A stretch of DNA of 64,000 bases from a virus. The notes under the pieces were generated by a model. That model saw only the letters and a program-made list of their open reading frames with translations, searched no databases and was not told the origin of the DNA. How positions within the stretch are numbered: the stretch's first letter is position 1; every line of letters begins with the position of its first letter. Location of the stretch: the UHGV virus genome UHGV-1378516, one strand, 5' to 3'. The position numbers and the translations under genes were made by a program. Below, piece after piece: positions 1 to 49,766 of the stretch.

Positions 1-2413
1 CACCTGTTGTATTCGTTACACCAGACCAGTTTCTTGATGCGTTGAAGTTGACAGGGATACCTTTAGTAAAGTTGTTACCAGTATACCCTTTAGAACCTGC
101 CTGACTACCGAGGTAGAATGCACCACTTGCTGTGTAGAAGCCACTAGCGTCACTTCTGAAGTAACCAAATGAACCAGTAATCTCCATAGTACCTCTGTTG
201 TGGTTGTGGTTACCAGTTGTGCTAGAAGTCTTAGTACCATAGTCAAATGATGAAGTAGTAGCAGAGAAGCTGTGCGTGTGTGAAGGTAAGTTACCAACAG
301 ACAGCGTTACAGAGTCTGAACCACCAGTTGTAGCAACATCTGAACCGTTTGCTGCTGCAATTCTAATAGTTCTACCAACACCATTATTCAGGTACGTCCA
401 AGTTAACCCAGGAAGTGCTGTGTTTGGGTTGACATTACTGTTAAACCACGTCACAATACCTACTGGATAGATTTTATTCAGGTCTGTAGAGTCACTAATT
501 GCTTCTGCAATCTTCTGGTCAGTTTCTGCTTTAGTGTATGCACCAATATCTGAAGGGGTTGGTTTTTGCAAACTTGTGTAGTATTTTGCAATTGTACCCT
601 TCACAATACCTTGTGGAGCATCATCAAATGTCTGTGGGACTTCAAACAACTGTACACTTGCATTACTAGAAGACTGAACCCTTGTCGTTGTGCTGTTTTG
701 ATACGTACCAGCAAGATAGTAAATATCATAGGTGTCTCCAGAAGTATTCACATAACCAATATCCCTGACAATGGTGTTCTCTGATGTTCTCCAAGCAACA
801 ACATTTAAGCCCTTTGGATTGTTATTTGAAGTTCGCAGAACAATTTCACATTTACCTGCTTGGTTTGGTGTATTAATATTAAAACCTGACCCACCAAATA
901 CCTCAATAACAGCAGTGGATGCTGATTGTGGCATCACAACAGTGGCAATTTTAGCCCACTTATCAGTGTTTCCCACATTGAAGCTAGTGCTTCTGATTCT
1001 TAGGTATCTACTATCACTAGCACTTTGCGTAAAGTATCTAGCATCTAAGTTAGAGAAATCTGAAGGTTGAACTTGTCCAGCAATAGTCAATGTTTTGTTA
1101 ATGTATGATGTTGTATTCCCGAGAACCAATTGGGTTCCAGAATAACTGTTATTTAGGGTAACATCATTCGTATCAGCACCACCAACACCAATCCACCATC
1201 TTGATACATTAGCAGTGTCCACACCACGAATATATAATGGTCTATTCTGAGTAGAGTTTTTAACAATCAGACCTTCATTATCAGTAACAACTGTCTGTAC
1301 ACCATTAAAAGTATTCCTTGCATTAGTTCTTGCAATCGTACTTAATGTTGCTACCGGAATATATCTAGAGTCAATGTTAGCCCAATCTGAAGGTTGGACT
1401 TGTCCAGTGATTTGCACAGTTTTATTGATACCAATAGCAGTACCTAGTGAAATCTGTGAACCTGTAAGGTAGTTATAAATATTTAGACGTGTTTCGTCAG
1501 AATCTGTACCAACATACCATTTATTTGTTCCATCAGACTTCTTACCGAGAATGTAAAGTGCTGTACTTGCATCAGTATTCTGCAAAGTAATAGCATTAGC
1601 ATTCTTCTTAACAACAAGGTTAGTGAAAGTGTTAGCACCTGTAAAAGTGTTATTACCAGCTAACTGTGCAAATCTCTGATTAGCAACTGTCTGAGTGAAG
1701 TATCTAGCATCTAAGTTAGAGAAATCTGAAGGTTGAACTTGACCAGTGATTGCTAAAGACTTATTCACAGAGATGTTGCTTGCAATAGTCAAGGCTGAAT
1801 TGTATTTGTTATTATATAACTTCACTTCATCAGAGCCATTACTACCAATACCAACCCACCATCTAGCTGAACCATCTAGGTTTACACCTTCGATATATTG
1901 TGCATTATTTGCATTTTGGTTCCTAAGGCGAAGTAAGTTAGCATCACCTTGAATATTTTGAGTCCCAGAGAATGTGTTTGTGACAGCAAGTCTTGCATAT
2001 CTCGCATCATTCTCTTCATTAGTTCTCATACCAAGTTCATTAGGGCTTGGTTTATTCAAAGTATGATAAACAGTTGCTGACCTTGAAGCATCTGCAATAG
2101 TGAGTTTAAGACCATTTGAGTTAAGTTTAAAAGTCTTTAAAACATCCCCAATAGTAATTTCAGAAGAACCTGTAGGGTCAAATACAGCCTTGCCACCGTA
2201 AAGTAACTTGACAATACCTAAATCACCCGTCATAGTGCTACCAGCAATCTGAACAAACCTTTCTAGTTTGAAGGAAGCTAAGAAGTCTTGATAGGTCATT
2301 CTACGGTCTTCGTCACCCAACATTTCAGGTCTTTTCTTAACTCTGATGTGCAATAGGTCTTCTGAACGAATTGTGTCGATTGAGTTTAATTGACTCAATT
2401 TGTAATCTGCCAT
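1..2413 (-). CDS. tail fibre protein, 5' portion (gene continues past window start)
   Basis: Minus-strand frame open from ATG at 2413 (SD AAGAGGA upstream, in-frame stop at 2438-2440) to position 1; absent from ORF track because it has no in-window stop; hand translation shows internal repeats (..GQVQPSDFSNLDARYF..) and HTHS/NHNHN His motifs near the window start. Confidence 0.6.
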   Translation of the reverse strand, partial: MADYKLSQLNSIDTIRSEDLLHIRVKKRPEMLGDEDRRMTYQDFLASFKLERFVQIAGSTMTGDLGIVKLLYGGKAVFDPTGSSEITIGDVLKTFKLNSNGLKLTIADASRSATVYHTLNKPSPNELGMRTNEENDARYARLAVTNTFSGTQNIQGDANLLRLRNQNANNAQYIEGVNLDGSARWWVGIGSNGSDEVKLYNNKYNSALTIASNISVNKSLAITGQVQPSDFSNLDARYFTQTVANQRFAQLAGNNTFTGANTFTNLVVKKNANAITLQNTDASTALYILGKKSDGTNKWYVGTDSDETRLNIYNYLTGSQISLGTAIGINKTVQITGQVQPSDWANIDSRYIPVATLSTIARTNARNTFNGVQTVVTDNEGLIVKNSTQNRPLYIRGVDTANVSRWWIGVGGADTNDVTLNNSYSGTQLVLGNTTSYINKTLTIAGQVQPSDFSNLDARYFTQSASDSRYLRIRSTSFNVGNTDKWAKIATVVMPQSASTAVIEVFGGSGFNINTPNQAGKCEIVLRTSNNNPKGLNVVAWRTSENTIVRDIGYVNTSGDTYDIYYLAGTYQNSTTTRVQSSSNASVQLFEVPQTFDDAPQGIVKGTIAKYYTSLQKPTPSDIGAYTKAETDQKIAEAISDSTDLNKIYPVGIVTWFNSNVNPNTALPGLTWTYLNNGVGRTIRIAAANGSDVATTGGSDSVTLSVGNLPSHTHSFSATTSSFDYGTKTSSTTGNHNHNRGTMEITGSFGYFRSDASGFYTASGAFYLGSQAGSKGYTGNNFTKGIPVNFNASRNWSGVTNTTG

Positions 2414-2433: not shown

Positions 2434-2449
2434 GGGGCTATAAAGCCCC
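2434..2449 (-). terminator. weak hairpin terminator/attenuator between the two tail fibre genes
   Basis: GGGGC-tttata-GCCCC on minus strand followed by UUUU. Confidence 0.3.
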
Positions 2450-2459
2450 TGTAAAGAAA

Positions 2460-3635
2460 TTAAACTGTTCTCTGCCACACATATACTACAAAAGATGGCT
2501 GCTCAATACTGAAAGCTTGGCCACCACCAACAGAACCAGATGTTCCTGAGTGTGTATGCTCGGAGCTAGAAACAGTAACAGTACCTGTATGGCTGTGTGA
2601 ACCAATATTAACAGTATGACTATGAGCACCAATTGCAACAGTATGACTATGAGCACCAGATGATGCAGTTGTGCCTGAGAAGCTATGGGTGTGAGCACCA
2701 GCTAAATCAGTATACATAGCATTACCAACACCAGCATCAGCAGATGCAGTAATAGCATTTGTACCACCTCTATCATTACCCCTCATAGGTACTCTATGGT
2801 TGTGGTTACCAGCATTGCTTGTTGTGCCACTAAACGTGTGCGTGTGAGCACCAACACTGTTAGTTGTCTTCGTACCATAATCAAAAGTCGATGTACTTTT
2901 TGAACCATAATCAAAGCTAGAGATAGATACGCTTGCAGAGTGTGTATGACCACCACCTGTTAGATAGATAGAGTGAGTATGCGCTGGTAAATTATTATTT
3001 GTTAATGCTACAGTCTGAGAACCAAACATTGAACCAACAGGTCTAGAATCTGTATCATAACCAACTAGTGCTCTACCTTTAGAAACTAACTCCCAAGTAC
3101 CTCCACAAAGTAAGTAAGTGGATGGGTTAGCTGGATTCACAGATAGATGGATTGTCCCTACTGGATATGATGCTTGGATAGCTTTGTACAAGTTATTGAC
3201 TGCTTTTGCTGTAGCATATTTATCAGCATCTTCATTGTACAGATTGGATGTTGTCCAGTTCTGAACATTACTTAAACCGACCTGTGCTTTCGTTGTATTG
3301 TGTGGGTTACTTTTATCGTCAATATGTTTCTGAATTAAATTATTCACTTCCTCTGACGACATAATTTGTAGATTTGCTCTTGCCTCAGCAACACTTACAA
3401 CATCTGACAAGTTATTAGCTGCAACTAATTGAAGAGAGTTAATAACATTATCAAGACCTACTTGTGATTTAGTTACACCATGAGGGTTATTCCTCAAAGA
3501 TGCGTGAGGTGCTAACAACTGCTCAAGCGTACATCTTTTATCCTCAACACCTTGCTTAAGGTGGAAGATATCACTCAAATCAATTGGTAAGGCCGCTTGT
3601 GGCAAGGCACTAATTTGAATTTCACCTACTGCCAT
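2460..3635 (-). CDS. tail fibre protein with His-x-His repeat tip
   Basis: 391 aa; repeated AHTHS/GAHSHTV/NHNH motifs in C-terminal half; N-terminal ..KSQVGLDNV../..KAQVGLSNV.. motifs; last genes of structural operon. Confidence 0.65.
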   Translation of the reverse strand: MAVGEIQISALPQAALPIDLSDIFHLKQGVEDKRCTLEQLLAPHASLRNNPHGVTKSQVGLDNVINSLQLVAANNLSDVVSVAEARANLQIMSSEEVNNLIQKHIDDKSNPHNTTKAQVGLSNVQNWTTSNLYNEDADKYATAKAVNNLYKAIQASYPVGTIHLSVNPANPSTYLLCGGTWELVSKGRALVGYDTDSRPVGSMFGSQTVALTNNNLPAHTHSIYLTGGGHTHSASVSISSFDYGSKSTSTFDYGTKTTNSVGAHTHTFSGTTSNAGNHNHRVPMRGNDRGGTNAITASADAGVGNAMYTDLAGAHTHSFSGTTASSGAHSHTVAIGAHSHTVNIGSHSHTGTVTVSSSEHTHSGTSGSVGGGQAFSIEQPSFVVYVWQRTV

Positions 3636-33607: not shown

Positions 33608-34071
33608 TGCAACTCTCACAGAAAGGTTTAGAAGCTATTAAGTTCTTTGAAGGTCTGAAGCTAGAGGCTTACGAAGATTCTGCTGGAATCCCAACAATTG
33701 GGTATGGGACTATCCGTATTGCTGGTAAGCCTGTTAAGATGGGTATGAGGATTACCGCTGAACAAGCTGAACAGTATCTTCTCGCAGATGTTGAAAAGTT
33801 CGTTGCAGCAGTGAACAAAGCCGTCAAGGTTCCAACTTCTCAGAATGAGTTTGACGCACTTGTAAGTGAAACATACAACATTGGCATCACAGCCATGCAG
33901 GACTCTACATTTATCAAGCGCCACAACGATGGTAATAAGGTAGGTTGTGCAGAAGCTATGCAGTGGTGGAACAAGGTTACAGTCAAAGGTAAGAAGGTCA
34001 CTTCAAACGGCCTGAAAAACAGACGTAGAATGGAAGCTGACATTTATCTTGACAGTGTATACCCAAAGTAA
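33607..34071 (+). CDS. endolysin, T4-type lysozyme (GH24)
   Basis: 154 aa; ..FEGLKLEAYEDSAGIPTIGYG.. catalytic Glu/Asp/Thr pattern; followed by GGCTCC-TTCG-GGAGCC + T6 terminator. Confidence 0.85.
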   Translation: MQLSQKGLEAIKFFEGLKLEAYEDSAGIPTIGYGTIRIAGKPVKMGMRITAEQAEQYLLADVEKFVAAVNKAVKVPTSQNEFDALVSETYNIGITAMQDSTFIKRHNDGNKVGCAEAMQWWNKVTVKGKKVTSNGLKNRRRMEADIYLDSVYPK

Positions 34072-45556: not shown

Positions 45557-45628
45557 AAAGCCCTCCTTACCTGAAAAATTTACCAGATAAGAAAGGCTTA
45601 GTCTATTGTGAATATCCTACGAAGTTTC

Positions 45629-47139: not shown

Positions 47140-47409
47140 TTACTTCCTCGTTTTAAGAACTGCTAAGATTTCTTTAGAGTCTGGTAAGAACCATGTGTAG
47201 TGATTCTCTTTGATTTCTGGATGAGTGTCAACCTTTATTTTGCACTCTTTACCAACATGCTTAAGCTGTGCTGTGACACCCTGCATAAAGATATGACACA
47301 TCACATTATCCATAATGGTTGGTATAAAGTCAATTCGCATATAAGTTTCTTTTGGTCGCGGTAACAGTAAGTACCCTTCTACGTAAAAAGTATCTTCATT
47401 CTCTGTCAT
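47140..47409 (-). CDS. hypothetical protein
   Basis: 89 aa. Confidence 0.45.
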   Translation of the reverse strand: MTENEDTFYVEGYLLLPRPKETYMRIDFIPTIMDNVMCHIFMQGVTAQLKHVGKECKIKVDTHPEIKENHYTWFLPDSKEILAVLKTRK

Positions 47410-47675
47410 TGCTGTTTATTTCCTAATAAAATCATATCAATAAGGTTATTAGCTTTGATTGTGCACTGGTAAAATCCATCACGATAGAACTCAAGGGCTG
47501 CTGCCACATCACTACCAGTATTGCCTTTGATAGTGAATCTTGAATCTTCTTGAGTGTACTTATCACTCTCACTTACTTGGGAGTTTTTGAATGTACTGCT
47601 CACTTTGTTCGTTGAACACCCTGACATAATTATCAGTAACACAAACATTATAAAACTCTGGCTTAGTTTTTTCAT
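47406..47675 (-). CDS. lipoprotein, possible o-spanin
   Basis: 89 aa; signal peptide + lipobox ..IMSGC..; SD AAGAGG; start embedded in 3' end of upstream ORF in another frame. Confidence 0.4.
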   Translation of the reverse strand: MKKLSQSFIMFVLLIIMSGCSTNKVSSTFKNSQVSESDKYTQEDSRFTIKGNTGSDVAAALEFYRDGFYQCTIKANNLIDMILLGNKQQ

Positions 47676-47916
47676 ATGTTAGTACCTCTTTTGTGTGCTT
47701 ATTCTTAGCAAGCACATCTTTCAAATCATTTTTGTAATTGGTGCTCAGTGTAGCTAATCCTTCCTGATAAGCGTCTTTAGCTACACTTATCAGCTTCTCA
47801 TTGTTTAGCTCAGTTTCAGCAACTTGGTAGTCTCTGTAAGAGTATCCTCCCCAGACACCTGCCCCAACTAAGAAAACAATTATGAAAGTAGCTTGACAGA
47901 ACTCTTTAAATGTCAT
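47569..47916 (-). CDS. membrane-anchored protein, possible i-spanin
   Basis: 115 aa; N-terminal TM helix then charged region; overlaps lipoprotein gene by ~107 nt (Rz/Rz1-like arrangement). Confidence 0.35.
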   Translation of the reverse strand: MTFKEFCQATFIIVFLVGAGVWGGYSYRDYQVAETELNNEKLISVAKDAYQEGLATLSTNYKNDLKDVLAKNKHTKEVLTYEKTKPEFYNVCVTDNYVRVFNEQSEQYIQKLPSK

Positions 47917-47935
47917 TTAACAATCTCCTGAAATG

Positions 47936-47956
47936 AAAAAGGCTCCCGAAGGAGCC
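47936..47956 (-). terminator. rho-independent terminator
   Basis: Minus-sense GGCUCC-UUCG-GGAGCC + U5. Confidence 0.65.
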
Positions 47957-47968
47957 TGTATCTTAACC

Positions 47969-48444: not shown

Positions 48445-49140
48445 TCAATGTTTAACTAACATGGTTTTAATGTGTGGAAGGATTCTGTTTACCTTCTGAA
48501 CATTCTTCTCTGTATCTTCTATAAAGCATACTATATTAAAGTAAGGAAGAATGCAAGACTGAATCATCCTCACTTTCAAACTTTCTGCACTTATAGAGTT
48601 AGTTCCAAAACCACGCATAAAAAGCAAGTAATCATGCTCTATATTGTGCCTTAAAAACATCTCAGTAGGTATTCTCTGAGATTCACCTCTTGCTGTCAAG
48701 AGTCCAACTGCTGCATGATTTGCAATTGCATCAATAATGTTGAAAACATATGTTGGTTTTGCTCTTACAGAATCAAGAAGATTAGTGTACTGTGAGAATG
48801 ACCCATCAGTCAATTCCGTTGAGCAATCTTCGTGATTAAAATTTGTAAGAACACCATCAATATCTGCTAAGATGAGGTTACCTTTTTCTACAAGGTCTTT
48901 ATTGACTATCACTAAACTATCACGCCTTACACCTATAGCTTGTCCAGTCTCTTTGTCCACAACGTTCACAATGGGTTCTGATGTGTGGAACTCTTCAAGT
49001 GAACATACAACCTCTCTTGCAGTGTCTTCAAAATCTCTGCACTGTTCTGGAGTCCATACACAGGAATCAAGACCTAACTCATGAGGATGCAAGTCATAAG
49101 CGTGGCACAGGACTTCATCAGACTTTCTTAATTTTTTCAT
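48445..49140 (-). CDS. HAD-superfamily hydrolase (phosphatase-like)
   Basis: 231 aa; HAD motif I ..LILADIDGVLTNF.. Confidence 0.5.
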   Translation of the reverse strand: MKKLRKSDEVLCHAYDLHPHELGLDSCVWTPEQCRDFEDTAREVVCSLEEFHTSEPIVNVVDKETGQAIGVRRDSLVIVNKDLVEKGNLILADIDGVLTNFNHEDCSTELTDGSFSQYTNLLDSVRAKPTYVFNIIDAIANHAAVGLLTARGESQRIPTEMFLRHNIEHDYLLFMRGFGTNSISAESLKVRMIQSCILPYFNIVCFIEDTEKNVQKVNRILPHIKTMLVKH

Positions 49141-49666
49141 GATTTACCTTAGAAATGTTTGTTGCAAATTCACATTGAGCGATAACTTTCATATTGTTAT
49201 AGACATCTTGAGAGTATTTCTTAGCTTTAGGGATTTTGTACGAATACCCAGCATTATATGATGCTAAAACTTTTTGTAAAGTCTTCTTTGACTTTGGGTG
49301 ACCATGTACCTTCGTCCAAAACTCAAGCTCTTTATGTGTTTCTTTTGCGGCATAGTCAAAATCTTTTAAGAGTTTCTTTTTAGCAACATTAGGACTAATT
49401 TTGTTACGCTTTACAACAGTCTTCAAGTGATTCTGGAAGATACCGTAGTCATGGGTCTTTTTATTTTCTACCTTCAGACCTAACTCTGACTCTTGTAAGG
49501 CTATAGCTGCTAGAGTGATACCCCAACCTTTACCCATGTTATTCTCACCATACTGGTAAGCTTTTAACATGTTCACTTTTTGGCTAATTGATAGCTCTGG
49601 GCAGTCAACTGCATAAGATAAGTGTGCTGTAAACATTAAGCACAAACCTAGAATCAATTTCTTCAT
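49118..49666 (-). CDS. secreted lytic transglycosylase-like protein
   Basis: 182 aa; signal peptide; ..LQESELG..DYGIFQ.. resembles SLT catalytic-Glu region; SD AGGAGA. Confidence 0.4.
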   Translation of the reverse strand: MKKLILGLCLMFTAHLSYAVDCPELSISQKVNMLKAYQYGENNMGKGWGITLAAIALQESELGLKVENKKTHDYGIFQNHLKTVVKRNKISPNVAKKKLLKDFDYAAKETHKELEFWTKVHGHPKSKKTLQKVLASYNAGYSYKIPKAKKYSQDVYNNMKVIAQCEFATNISKVNHEKIKKV

Positions 49667-49727: not shown

Positions 49728-49749
49728 AAAAAAGGCCGCCGAAGCAGCC
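49728..49749 (-). terminator. rho-independent terminator after rIIB-like gene
   Basis: Minus-sense GGCUGC-UUCG-GCGGCC + U6. Confidence 0.65.
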
Positions 49750-49766
49750 TTTTAAGAAATTACTTA

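What the first reader, a model, noticed from the sequence alone, without database searches (positions are those of the whole stretch)
47406..47916. Overlapping membrane-anchor and lipoprotein ORFs resembling a spanin pair, far from the endolysin
47569..47916 encodes an N-terminal TM helix followed by a charged region; 47406..47675 starts in a different frame inside its last ~107 nt with its own SD and encodes a signal peptide with lipobox (..IMSGC..). This out-of-frame overlap is characteristic of i-spanin/o-spanin pairs, but the pair lies on the opposite strand about 14 kb from the lysozyme and the lipoprotein is longer than typical o-spanins.
Basis: inference. Interest (0 to 1): 0.4.

Follow-up and report, generated by a model that had tools for sequence, protein, structure and literature searches.

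The report
Felix O1-type overlapped spanin gene pair

Summary
47569..47916(-) encodes a 115-aa protein with an N-terminal TM helix. 47406..47675(-) starts in another frame 107 nt before that gene ends. It has its own AAGAGG ribosome-binding site and encodes an 89-aa lipoprotein precursor (lipobox MSG|C20, Ser at +2).

The window is a Felixounavirus, about 96% identical to phages XTG1 and KhF1. The pair is already annotated i-spanin/o-spanin in curated relatives; Moogle has identical geometry. Kongari et al. 2018 list Felix O1 among the overlapped two-component spanins.

Both partners, the lipobox and one periplasmic Cys in each are conserved down to about 28% identity. Substitutions drop from about 25% to 10% inside the overlap, as expected for dual coding. 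In Yersinia phage P778 the orthologous endolysin sits directly upstream of the pair.

Distance from the endolysin is normal for this group and for T4. At 89 aa the o-spanin lies between lambda Rz1 (60 aa) and T4 PseT.2 (99 aa).

The verdict is a real feature, correctly interpreted and already known. Function is inferred; I found no experiment on this family. The useful by-product is that most public records truncate the o-spanin start and so remove its signal peptide.

The parts
47569..47916 (-). i-spanin gene (115 aa): short N-terminus, TM helix at about residues 6-26, then a periplasmic domain over residues 28-115 with invariant Cys92
   Evidence: ORF. phrog_1152 'Rz-like spanin' at 8e-42. 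The AF2 model gives helix 3-83, loop 84-95 and helix 96-110, pLDDT 63. The 41-sequence family alignment has invariant G24, E82, F88, C92, F101 and N102.
47406..47675 (-). o-spanin gene (89-aa precursor, 70-aa mature lipoprotein): signal peptide, lipobox MSG|C20, Ser21-Thr22, an unstructured tether, then a C-terminal helix with invariant Cys71
   Evidence: ORF. phrog_4180 at 4e-50 and phrog_456 'Rz-like spanin' at 8e-5. The family alignment has invariant L4, C20, S21, T22, G54, E62, C71, N76 and L78. The AF2 model gives helix 4-19, disorder 20-53 and helix 54-88, pLDDT 53.
47569..47675 (-). 107-nt dual-coding overlap: the last 35 codons of the i-spanin (including Cys92) and the first 35 codons of the o-spanin (signal peptide and lipobox), with the o-frame offset +1
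   Evidence: There are 11/107 substitutions against Moogle, compared with 61/241 and 42/163 in the flanks, Fisher p = 6e-4. Seven of the 11 fall on o-frame third positions.
47839..47895 (-). Codons for the i-spanin transmembrane segment (about residues 8-26)
   Evidence: Hydropathy maximum 1.75 at residues 6-24. A hydrophobic segment followed by invariant G24 is conserved across the family.
47616..47627 (-). Lipobox codons M17-S18-G19-C20 of the o-spanin
   Evidence: Sequence. Relatives carry ISGC, MSGC, TSGC, TASC, MSAC and VSGC with an invariant Cys-Ser-Thr.
47685..47690 (-). Ribosome-binding site AAGAGG, 9 nt upstream of the o-spanin ATG and inside the i-spanin coding sequence
   Evidence: An RBS is annotated at the equivalent place in Moogle.
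47925..47929 (-). Ribosome-binding site AGGAG, 8 nt upstream of the i-spanin ATG
47931..47957 (-). Intrinsic-terminator-like hairpin AGGCTCCTTCGGGAGCCT plus a T-run, immediately upstream of the i-spanin. No sigma-70-like promoter lies between it and the start codon.
   Evidence: Annotated as 'terminator' in the XTG1 and KhF1-3 records.
33607..34071 (+). Endolysin (154-aa lysozyme), the functional partner whose action is expected to release the spanin complex. It lies 13.3 kb away on the other strand.
   Evidence: phrog_7 endolysin at 3.4e-57. It is 58% identical to the Yersinia P778 endolysin, which sits directly upstream of that phage's spanin pair.

Best explanation
This is the two-component spanin of a Felix O1-like myophage, in the 'overlapped' gene arrangement.

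Shown by sequence: one mRNA stretch encodes two proteins in different frames. The first is an inner-membrane protein anchored by an N-terminal TM helix, with a mostly helical domain of about 88 aa. The second is a lipoprotein precursor whose lipobox Cys20 is followed by Ser-Thr. There is no Asp at +2, so the Lol pathway should deliver it to the outer membrane.

Inferred from what is established for lambda Rz/Rz1 and T4 PseT.3/PseT.2: the C-terminal regions of the two proteins bind each other across the periplasm. Each carries one invariant Cys (i-Cys92, o-Cys71), and these probably form Dsb-dependent intermolecular disulfides. The complexes accumulate harmlessly while threaded through the peptidoglycan mesh. 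When the holin releases the endolysin (33607..34071) and the wall is degraded, the complexes can move sideways and change shape. This brings the inner and outer membranes together and destroys the outer membrane, which is the last step of lysis.

Because the complex is inert until the wall is gone, the genes do not need to sit next to the holin or the endolysin, or to be co-timed with them. That fits their place in an early-looking gene block downstream of rIIA/rIIB.
For: Anatomy. Family assignment of the i-partner: phrog_1152 'Rz-like spanin' at 8e-42. There is a weak direct link to lambda Rz: pairwise E = 7e-4, and Rz itself hits phrog_1152 at 1.5e-4. Curated records use the same labels and geometry (Moogle; heid). 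Felix O1 and phiEa104 are listed as overlapped spanins in PMC6139136. The architecture is kept in diverged relatives: Hafnia Zyzzx, Erwinia phiEa104, Yersinia P778 and Kuravirus 172-1 all have a TM-anchored ORF whose 3' end overlaps an out-of-frame lipobox ORF. Invariant motifs include the lipobox Cys-Ser-Thr and one periplasmic Cys per partner. Dual-coding constraint in the overlap. Gene neighbourhood: in P778 the orthologous endolysin (58% identity) lies 44 nt upstream of the pair. Predicted secondary structure matches the helix-linker-helix layout described for i-spanins, and a tether-plus-helix o-spanin resembles the T4 type (PMC6139136).
Against: I found no experimental test of this family. 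Function therefore rests on homology, architecture and neighbourhood. Both structure models are low confidence (pLDDT 63 and 53). My crude heptad test found no coiled-coil periodicity in the stalk; 3983 of 5000 shuffles scored as well. The mature o-spanin has no proline at all, unlike lambda Rz1, whose proline-rich stretch is mutationally sensitive. There is no detectable sequence similarity to T4 PseT.3/PseT.2. The pair follows a terminator hairpin with no obvious promoter of its own, so its expression level and timing are unknown. The membrane topology of the i-spanin cannot be read from the charge distribution.
Confidence: 0.93

Rival explanations
1. The pair is an envelope system unrelated to lysis. 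An example would be a superinfection-exclusion or receptor-masking lipoprotein with a membrane partner, comparable to T5 Llp or the Cor proteins (from my own knowledge of those systems), expressed early to protect the infected cell.
For: The genes lie in an early-looking block on the same strand as rIIA/rIIB, a phosphatase-like gene and a macro-domain gene. They are 13.3 kb from the endolysin, on the opposite strand. The PHROG families of the lipoprotein, phrog_4180 and phrog_2425, are labelled 'unknown function'. No experiment exists for this family.
Against: The membrane partner belongs to a spanin PHROG at 8e-42 and shows weak similarity to lambda Rz. The overlapped, out-of-frame TM-protein/lipoprotein arrangement is kept across myophages and podophages. 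Orthologues sit immediately after the endolysin in Yersinia P778. T4 keeps its proven spanins in an early region away from the holin and endolysin too.
Confidence: 0.04
2. Only the 115-aa gene is a real membrane protein. The second gene's true product is the shorter 65-73-aa cytoplasmic protein annotated in most GenBank records, starting at Met17 or later. On this view the upstream 'signal peptide plus lipobox' is an untranslated accident of the alternative frame.
For: Most database entries use the short form. Roughly 360 member sequences are 68-73 aa, against about 40 at 88-89 aa. The heid, Pr103Blw and DR094 records use the short form. A lipoprotein-signal pattern arises about 0.9 times per shuffled 64-kb window.
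Against: The long frame is open, and the lipobox Cys-Ser-Thr is invariant in lineages only 28-35% identical. Met1 has an AAGAGG ribosome-binding site, while Met10 and Met17 have none. Substitutions in the overlap are 2.5-fold depleted and fall mostly on o-frame third positions. The curated Texas A&M records use the 89-aa start. PMC6139136 documents that gene callers systematically mis-start overlapped o-spanins.
Confidence: 0.02

Closest known systems
Felix O1 / FO1a / UAB_Phi87 overlapped two-component spanins (SpaninDB, Kongari et al. 2018), and the curated i-spanin/o-spanin of Citrobacter phage Moogle (CPT_Moogle122/121)
   Same: These are orthologues: 77% (i) and 80% (o) amino-acid identity to Moogle, and 97-100% to Felixounavirus members. 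Lengths are identical (115 and 89 aa), as is the 107-nt overlap, and each gene has its own RBS.
   Different: Nothing of substance differs. This window is simply another Felixounavirus isolate.
Lambda Rz / Rz1 (prototype spanin, embedded architecture)
   Same: Both have an N-terminal TM anchor and a helical periplasmic i-spanin. Both have an outer-membrane lipoprotein partner encoded in another frame of the same DNA, and periplasmic Cys residues. The i-spanin has weak sequence similarity to Rz (E = 7e-4; Rz hits phrog_1152 at 1.5e-4).
   Different: Rz1 is fully embedded in Rz, whereas here the o-gene runs 163 nt past the i-gene. Rz is 153 aa against 115 aa here. Rz1 is 60 aa and proline-rich. 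This o-spanin is 89 aa, has no proline, and is predicted to end in a helix of about 35 residues. The lambda genes sit in an S-R-Rz/Rz1 cassette, while here they are 13.3 kb from the endolysin.
T4 PseT.3 / PseT.2 (spanin pair shown to complement lambda Rz/Rz1)
   Same: The sizes are similar (117 and 99 aa in RefSeq). Per PMC6139136 the T4 i-spanin has two periplasmic helices and its o-spanin has a C-terminal helix. In both phages the genes lie away from the holin and endolysin in an early-type region of a large virulent myophage.
   Different: There is no detectable sequence similarity, and the PHROG families differ (739/812 versus 1152/4180). The T4 genes overlap by only 4 nt, which the paper classes as 'separated'. 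T4 has 0 + 2 periplasmic Cys, whereas this pair has 1 + 1.
Spanin pairs of Kuravirus (phiEco32-like) podophages, Erwinia Kolesnikvirus (phiEa21-4/phiEa104), Hafnia Ounavirinae phages and Yersinia phage P778
   Same: They belong to the same two protein families: phrog_1152 for the i-partner and phrog_2425/4180 for the o-partner. They share the overlapped arrangement, the EK..F.N.C...Y..FN motif in the i-partner, and the E[FYW][YW][RQ][DN]..[FYMT].C..(3)N.L motif in the o-partner.
   Different: Identity is 25-49%. Overlap lengths and N-terminal extensions differ. In P778 the pair is contiguous with the endolysin.

Membership tests
Two-component spanin (i-spanin + o-spanin), overlapped class | The i-spanin has a single N-terminal transmembrane domain with the bulk of the protein beyond it | tested here: met
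   Hydrophobic segment at residues 6-24, KD19 = 1.75. It is the N-terminal part of a predicted helix spanning 3-83. The segment is conserved in 41 family members. The N-in/C-out topology is inferred, not tested.
Two-component spanin (i-spanin + o-spanin), overlapped class | The periplasmic domain of the i-spanin is largely alpha-helical, typically two helices joined by a linker, with coiled-coil propensity | tested here: inconclusive
   AF2 gives helix 3-83, loop 84-95 and helix 96-110, but at pLDDT 63. A crude heptad a/d hydrophobicity test was not significant; 3983 of 5000 shuffles scored as well. No dedicated coiled-coil predictor was available.
Two-component spanin (i-spanin + o-spanin), overlapped class | The o-spanin has a signal-peptidase-II signal sequence with a lipobox ending in Cys | tested here: met
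   MKK, then a hydrophobic core, then M-S-G-C20. It matches a PROSITE-style lipoprotein pattern and is the only such ORF in the window. The Cys is invariant in diverged relatives. Actual lipidation cannot be tested here.
Two-component spanin (i-spanin + o-spanin), overlapped class | Outer-membrane sorting: no Lol-avoidance Asp at position +2 of the mature lipoprotein | tested here: met
   Ser21 and Thr22 follow Cys20 and are invariant across the family.
Two-component spanin (i-spanin + o-spanin), overlapped class | The o-spanin gene starts inside the i-spanin gene in another frame and extends beyond its stop | tested here: met
   The overlap is 107 nt at +1 frame offset, and the o-gene extends 163 nt past the i-stop. 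Moogle has the same geometry. Overlaps are also present in Hafnia, Erwinia, Yersinia and Kuravirus relatives.
Two-component spanin (i-spanin + o-spanin), overlapped class | At least one periplasmic Cys available for intermolecular disulfide bonds (507 of 528 systems in PMC6139136) | tested here: met
   i-Cys92 is invariant in 41 sequences and o-Cys71 is invariant in 7 diverged sequences. Disulfide formation itself is not testable here.
Two-component spanin (i-spanin + o-spanin), overlapped class | Physical i-o complex through the C-terminal regions, and outer-membrane disruption after wall degradation (complementation of lambda Rz/Rz1) | not testable with these tools
   This needs wet-lab complementation or pull-down, or a multimer structure prediction, which the tools do not offer.
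Two-component spanin (i-spanin + o-spanin), overlapped class | Association with other lysis genes (common, but not defining) | tested here: not met
   In this window the endolysin is 13.3 kb away on the other strand. The Moogle-type putative holin has no match in the window. In the relative P778 the orthologous endolysin is adjacent to the pair. PMC4319497 and PMC6139136 show that scattering is normal for Felix O1-like phages and for T4.
Lambda Rz1 sequence family (phrog_3198) | Short mature lipoprotein with a conserved proline-rich (penta-proline) region | tested here: not met
   The mature o-spanin is 70 aa with zero prolines. It hits phrog_4180 and phrog_2425, not phrog_3198.
T4 PseT.3 / PseT.2 sequence families (phrog_739 / phrog_812) | Detectable sequence similarity to PseT.3 and PseT.2 | tested here: not met
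   BLASTP gives E = 18 for the i-partners. For the o-partners only the signal peptide aligns, at E = 0.039. The PHROG families differ.
phrog_1152 'Rz-like spanin' (Felix O1 / Kuravirus / Kolesnikvirus i-spanin family) | Full-length profile match | tested here: met
   E = 8e-42, covering residues 1-115 against profile positions 2-124 of 127.

The most novel reading that the evidence does not exclude
The Felix O1 / Kuravirus / Kolesnikvirus spanin family may work somewhat differently from lambda Rz/Rz1. Its o-spanin is proline-free and ends in a long helix, and each partner carries exactly one invariant Cys in its C-terminal region (i-Cys92 in the inter-helix loop, o-Cys71 in the helix). These Cys residues could form a heterotypic i-o disulfide that covalently bridges the two membranes, rather than the homotypic i-i and o-o bonds documented for lambda and T4. 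My evidence neither supports nor excludes this.
Probability: 0.08. Interest if true: 0.3.

Novelty: already known. Interest (0 to 1): 0.07.

Why it matters
Biologically this adds nothing new. Felix O1-type overlapped spanins are in the published spanin catalogue and in curated GenBank records.

The practical value is for annotation. About 90% of database entries for this o-spanin start at an internal codon and lack the signal peptide and lipobox. PHROGs labels the o-spanin families 'unknown function'. At least one paper reported an o-spanin as absent from a phage (vB_Si_DR094) when the intact 89-aa ORF is present. Felixounaviruses are widely proposed for Salmonella and E. coli biocontrol, so a complete and correct lysis-gene inventory is useful. 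The family also remains experimentally untested.

Tried and rejected
1. Pfam and NCBIfam gave no meaningful family for either protein. The NCBIfam hits were far below cut-off and matched only the signal peptide.

2. A PDB sequence search with the 41-sequence i-spanin profile found nothing credible; the best E-value was 0.044.

3. The all-library profile search with the o-spanin alignment returned only 4 representatives. The protein is short and is rarely called correctly, so breadth had to come from tblastn on phage genomes instead.

4. Direct homology to T4 PseT.3/PseT.2 was rejected.

5. The heptad and coiled-coil test was not significant.

6. I did not run a fold search on the two AF2 models. 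At pLDDT 53-63, and with essentially single helices, any matches would be meaningless.

7. I looked for the holin. PHROGs gave no holin label for any small membrane-protein ORF in the window. The Moogle 'putative holin' has no tblastn match. Its expected position, just past the tail-fibre gene, is off the left edge of the window.

8. I considered shared synteny with T4, where a polynucleotide kinase gene lies next to the spanins. The window's 'polynucleotide kinase' resembles only the phosphatase half of T4 PseT, at E of about 0.1. I do not claim conserved synteny.

9. The idea that the lipobox ORF by itself is statistically remarkable was rejected. Shuffled sequence gives about 0.9 such ORFs per window.

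Full report
**1. What is there.**
On the minus strand, 47569..47916 is an ATG-initiated ORF of 115 aa. It begins MTFKEFCQATFIIVFLVGAGVWGGYSY and continues with a charged, polar sequence. A second ORF, 47406..47675, is 89 aa and begins MKKLSQSFIMFVLLIIMSGCSTNK. The second ORF starts 107 nt before the first one stops, in the +1 frame relative to it. AGGAG lies 8 nt upstream of the first ATG. AAGAGG lies 9 nt upstream of the second ATG, inside the first gene. The internal Met10 and Met17 codons of the second ORF have no such site. The hydrophobic maxima are 1.75 (Kyte-Doolittle, 19-residue window) in both proteins.

**2. Is it more than chance?**
A PROSITE-style lipoprotein-signal pattern matches exactly one ORF of at least 50 aa in all six frames of the window, and it is this one. 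Block-shuffled versions of the window produce about 0.9 such ORFs, so the motif alone proves nothing. Three further results settle it.
- tblastn finds the 89-aa protein in 318 phage records, all covering at least 80% of it, down to 28% identity. It finds the 115-aa protein in 403 records.
- Four diverged lineages keep the arrangement: Hafnia phage Zyzzx, Erwinia phage phiEa104, Yersinia phage P778 and the podophage 172-1 (Kuravirus). Each has a TM-anchored ORF whose 3' end overlaps an out-of-frame ORF starting with a signal peptide and lipobox (TSGC, TASC, MSAC, MSAC).
- Against Citrobacter phage Moogle, nucleotide differences are 25.3% in the i-only part and 25.8% in the o-only part, but 10.3% in the 107-nt overlap (Fisher p = 6e-4). 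Seven of the 11 overlap changes lie on o-frame third positions. That is the signature of two translated frames, and it shows the signal-peptide part of the second ORF is under selection.

**3. Identity of the window and prior annotation.**
The 3.3 kb around the pair is 95-96% identical to Felixounavirus genomes such as XTG1, KhF1, LF82P3 and heid. Many of these records already label the genes i-spanin and o-spanin. In Moogle, annotated by the Texas A&M Center for Phage Technology, the i-spanin is 348 nt and the o-spanin 270 nt. They overlap by 107 nt and each has an annotated RBS, the same geometry as here. [quoted passage not shown] The spanin survey of Kongari et al. lists "(Felix01, FO1a, UAB_phi87)" and "(phiEa104, PhiEa21-4)" under the overlapped architecture (PMC6139136). 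The finding is therefore already known.

**4. Family evidence.**
The i-partner matches phrog_1152 "Rz-like spanin" at 8e-42 over its full length. The o-partner matches phrog_4180 (4e-50) and phrog_2425 (1.6e-9), both labelled "unknown function", and weakly matches phrog_456 "Rz-like spanin" (8e-5). Pfam, NCBIfam and the PDB give nothing useful. The i-partner has weak similarity to lambda Rz (pairwise E = 7e-4), and Rz hits phrog_1152 at 1.5e-4. Neither partner resembles T4 PseT.3 or PseT.2 beyond the signal peptide.

A 41-member alignment of the i-family, reaching about 22% identity, has invariant G24, E82, F88, C92, F101 and N102. These form a C-terminal motif EK..F.N.C...Y..FN. A 7-member alignment of diverged o-partners has invariant L4, C20, S21, T22, G54, E62, C71, N76 and L78. 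Three points follow. The lipobox Cys is invariant. Ser, not the Lol-avoidance Asp, follows it, so outer-membrane sorting is expected. Each partner keeps exactly one periplasmic Cys in its C-terminal region, in line with the near-universal periplasmic Cys of two-component spanins (507 of 528; PMC6139136).

**5. Structure.**
AlphaFold2 with the 41-sequence alignment gives the i-spanin one long helix (residues 3-83, TM segment plus stalk), a loop (84-95) carrying Cys92, and a second helix (96-110). Mean pLDDT is 63. With only a shallow alignment, the o-spanin is predicted as a signal helix (4-19), an unstructured tether (20-53) and a helix (54-88) carrying Cys71. Mean pLDDT is 53. These are low-confidence monomer models of proteins expected to act as oligomers. 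I use them only for secondary structure.

The layout agrees with the helix-linker-helix i-spanins, and with the T4-type o-spanin that has a C-terminal helix, both described in PMC6139136. It differs from lambda Rz1, which is proline-rich; this mature o-spanin has no proline at all. My crude heptad test did not detect coiled-coil periodicity, so that feature stays open.

**6. Context.**
The endolysin is at 33607..34071(+) (phrog_7, 3.4e-57), 13.3 kb away on the other strand. The Moogle "putative holin" lies just past the tail-fibre gene. In this window the tail fibre maps to 2413..284(-) and the holin has no match, so its locus lies off the left edge.

Upstream of the pair on the same strand are a 159-aa protein of unknown function, a phosphatase-like "polynucleotide kinase", a signal-peptide protein with a weak SLT domain, then rIIB and rIIA. 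Downstream are four small unknown genes and a macro-domain protein. An intrinsic-terminator-like hairpin (47957..47940, plus a T-run) sits between the 159-aa gene and the i-spanin, and no promoter-like site lies between the hairpin and the start codon. Expression is therefore presumably by read-through; this is inference.

The strongest neighbourhood evidence comes from Yersinia phage P778. A lysozyme 58% identical to the window's endolysin (E = 9e-65) ends 44 nt before the i-spanin orthologue (phrog_1152, 5.5e-25), which overlaps the o-spanin orthologue. The three genes that are scattered here form one cassette there.

**7. Mechanism.**
Shown here:
- two overlapping translated frames;
- a TM-anchored helical protein;
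- an outer-membrane-type lipoprotein precursor;
- one conserved Cys in each partner;
- genetic linkage to an endolysin in a relative.

Inferred from the established lambda and T4 work summarised in PMC6139136:
- the two proteins join through their C-terminal regions into a complex that spans the periplasm;
- the complex is stabilised by Dsb-dependent intermolecular disulfides;
- the complex is held inactive by the peptidoglycan mesh;
- once the holin and endolysin have removed the wall, the complex disrupts the outer membrane, probably by fusing it with the inner membrane.

Since the complex is inert until then, the position and timing of the genes are unconstrained. This explains why they can lie far from the endolysin, as they do in T4. 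I put the probability that this pair is a functional spanin at about 0.93. The remainder is split between a non-lysis envelope function and the "short cytoplasmic product" reading implied by most database annotations. Both are contradicted by the conservation and dual-coding data.

**8.
- Distance from the endolysin is the rule for this phage group (PMC4319497).
- Length is unremarkable. At 89 aa it lies between lambda Rz1 (60 aa) and T4 PseT.2 (99 aa in RefSeq). The combined periplasmic length of about 158 aa is well inside the published range of 62-300.

**9. By-products.**
Most public entries for this o-spanin are N-terminally truncated. Clusters of 68-73 aa hold about 360 member sequences, against about 40 for the 88-89-aa form. 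The heid record starts at Met17, "MSGC...". The phiEa104 RefSeq and Hafnia Zyzzx records start after the lipobox.

In vB_Si_DR094 the gene is annotated as a 65-aa hypothetical protein, although the intact 89-aa ORF is present. The statement in PMC8300805 that only the i-spanin was found in that phage is thus an annotation artefact. Kongari et al. had already described this general problem. An earlier genome paper on UAB_Phi87 recognised only the lysin as a clear lysis gene (PMC4837284).

**10. Verdict.**
It is already known and catalogued, so interest is low. The one open point is that no member of this spanin family appears to have been tested experimentally.

Noticed in passing
window 47406..47675(-); L001 4012..4230; L011 473..670 versus 401..670; L005 1648..1776 versus 1501..1776; L004 1573..1752 versus 1456..1752: Most public records and protein-database clusters start this o-spanin at an internal codon (Met17 'MSGC...' or later), which removes the signal peptide and lipobox. 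About 360 member sequences are 68-73 aa, against about 40 full-length. The published claim that phage vB_Si_DR094 lacks an o-spanin (PMC8300805) is such an artefact, because the intact 89-aa ORF is present.
   Followed up: yes
PHROG families phrog_4180 and phrog_2425 (hit by window 47406..47675 and by the L005, L006 and L009 o-spanins): Both PHROG families that hold this o-spanin lineage are labelled 'unknown function'. PHROG-based annotators therefore name the i-spanin but leave its partner as 'hypothetical protein'.
   Followed up: partly
L006 (Yersinia phage vB_YenM_P778, PP693300.1) 749..1770: The endolysin (58% identical to the window's), the i-spanin orthologue (1263..1628, not annotated in the record) and the o-spanin orthologue form one contiguous cassette. 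In Felixounavirus the same genes are scattered.
   Followed up: partly
window 49118..49666(-): A 182-aa protein has a Sec-type signal peptide (MKKLILGLCLMFTAHLSYA|VD) and a sub-threshold SLT lytic-transglycosylase match (Pfam 18.8 bits against a cut-off of 21.3). Some records call it 'putative lysin'. It would be a second, exported wall-degrading enzyme 1.2 kb upstream of the spanins, and its role is unknown.
   Followed up: partly
window 48445..49140(-): The gene labelled 'polynucleotide kinase' (phrog_3970) resembles only the HAD phosphatase half of T4 PseT, and only weakly (E about 0.1; the DIDGV and DVDGT motifs align). The kinase label looks unsupported. T4's spanin genes also lie next to pseT, but I could not show conserved synteny.
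   Followed up: partly
GU169904.1 (Staphylococcus phage SA1, 147 kb) 125695..126039; hit H24: A record named as a Staphylococcus phage carries a Felix O1-type i-spanin 100% identical to the window's. Two 'Campylobacter' records also matched the region at DNA level. This looks like chimeric or contaminated assemblies.
   Followed up: no
L009 (Escherichia phage 172-1, Kuravirus) 2444..2939, and about 140 other podophage records: Both spanin partners of these phiEco32-like podophages belong to the same families as the Felix O1-like myophage pair, at about 27-37% identity and with the same C-terminal motifs. This suggests the two-gene module has moved between unrelated phage groups.
   Followed up: partly
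window 49753..49730, 47957..47940 and 45599..45558 (all on the minus strand): Three strong terminator-like hairpins divide the rIIB-to-macro-domain gene block into units. The spanin pair begins 23 nt after the T-run of the middle one, with no promoter-like site in between.
   Followed up: no
window 1..2413: The tail-fibre gene maps to 2413..284(-). The Moogle-type 'putative holin' (124 aa, one N-terminal TM helix plus a long helical region) has no match in the window, so the holin locus of this phage lies beyond the left edge or has diverged.
   Followed up: partly
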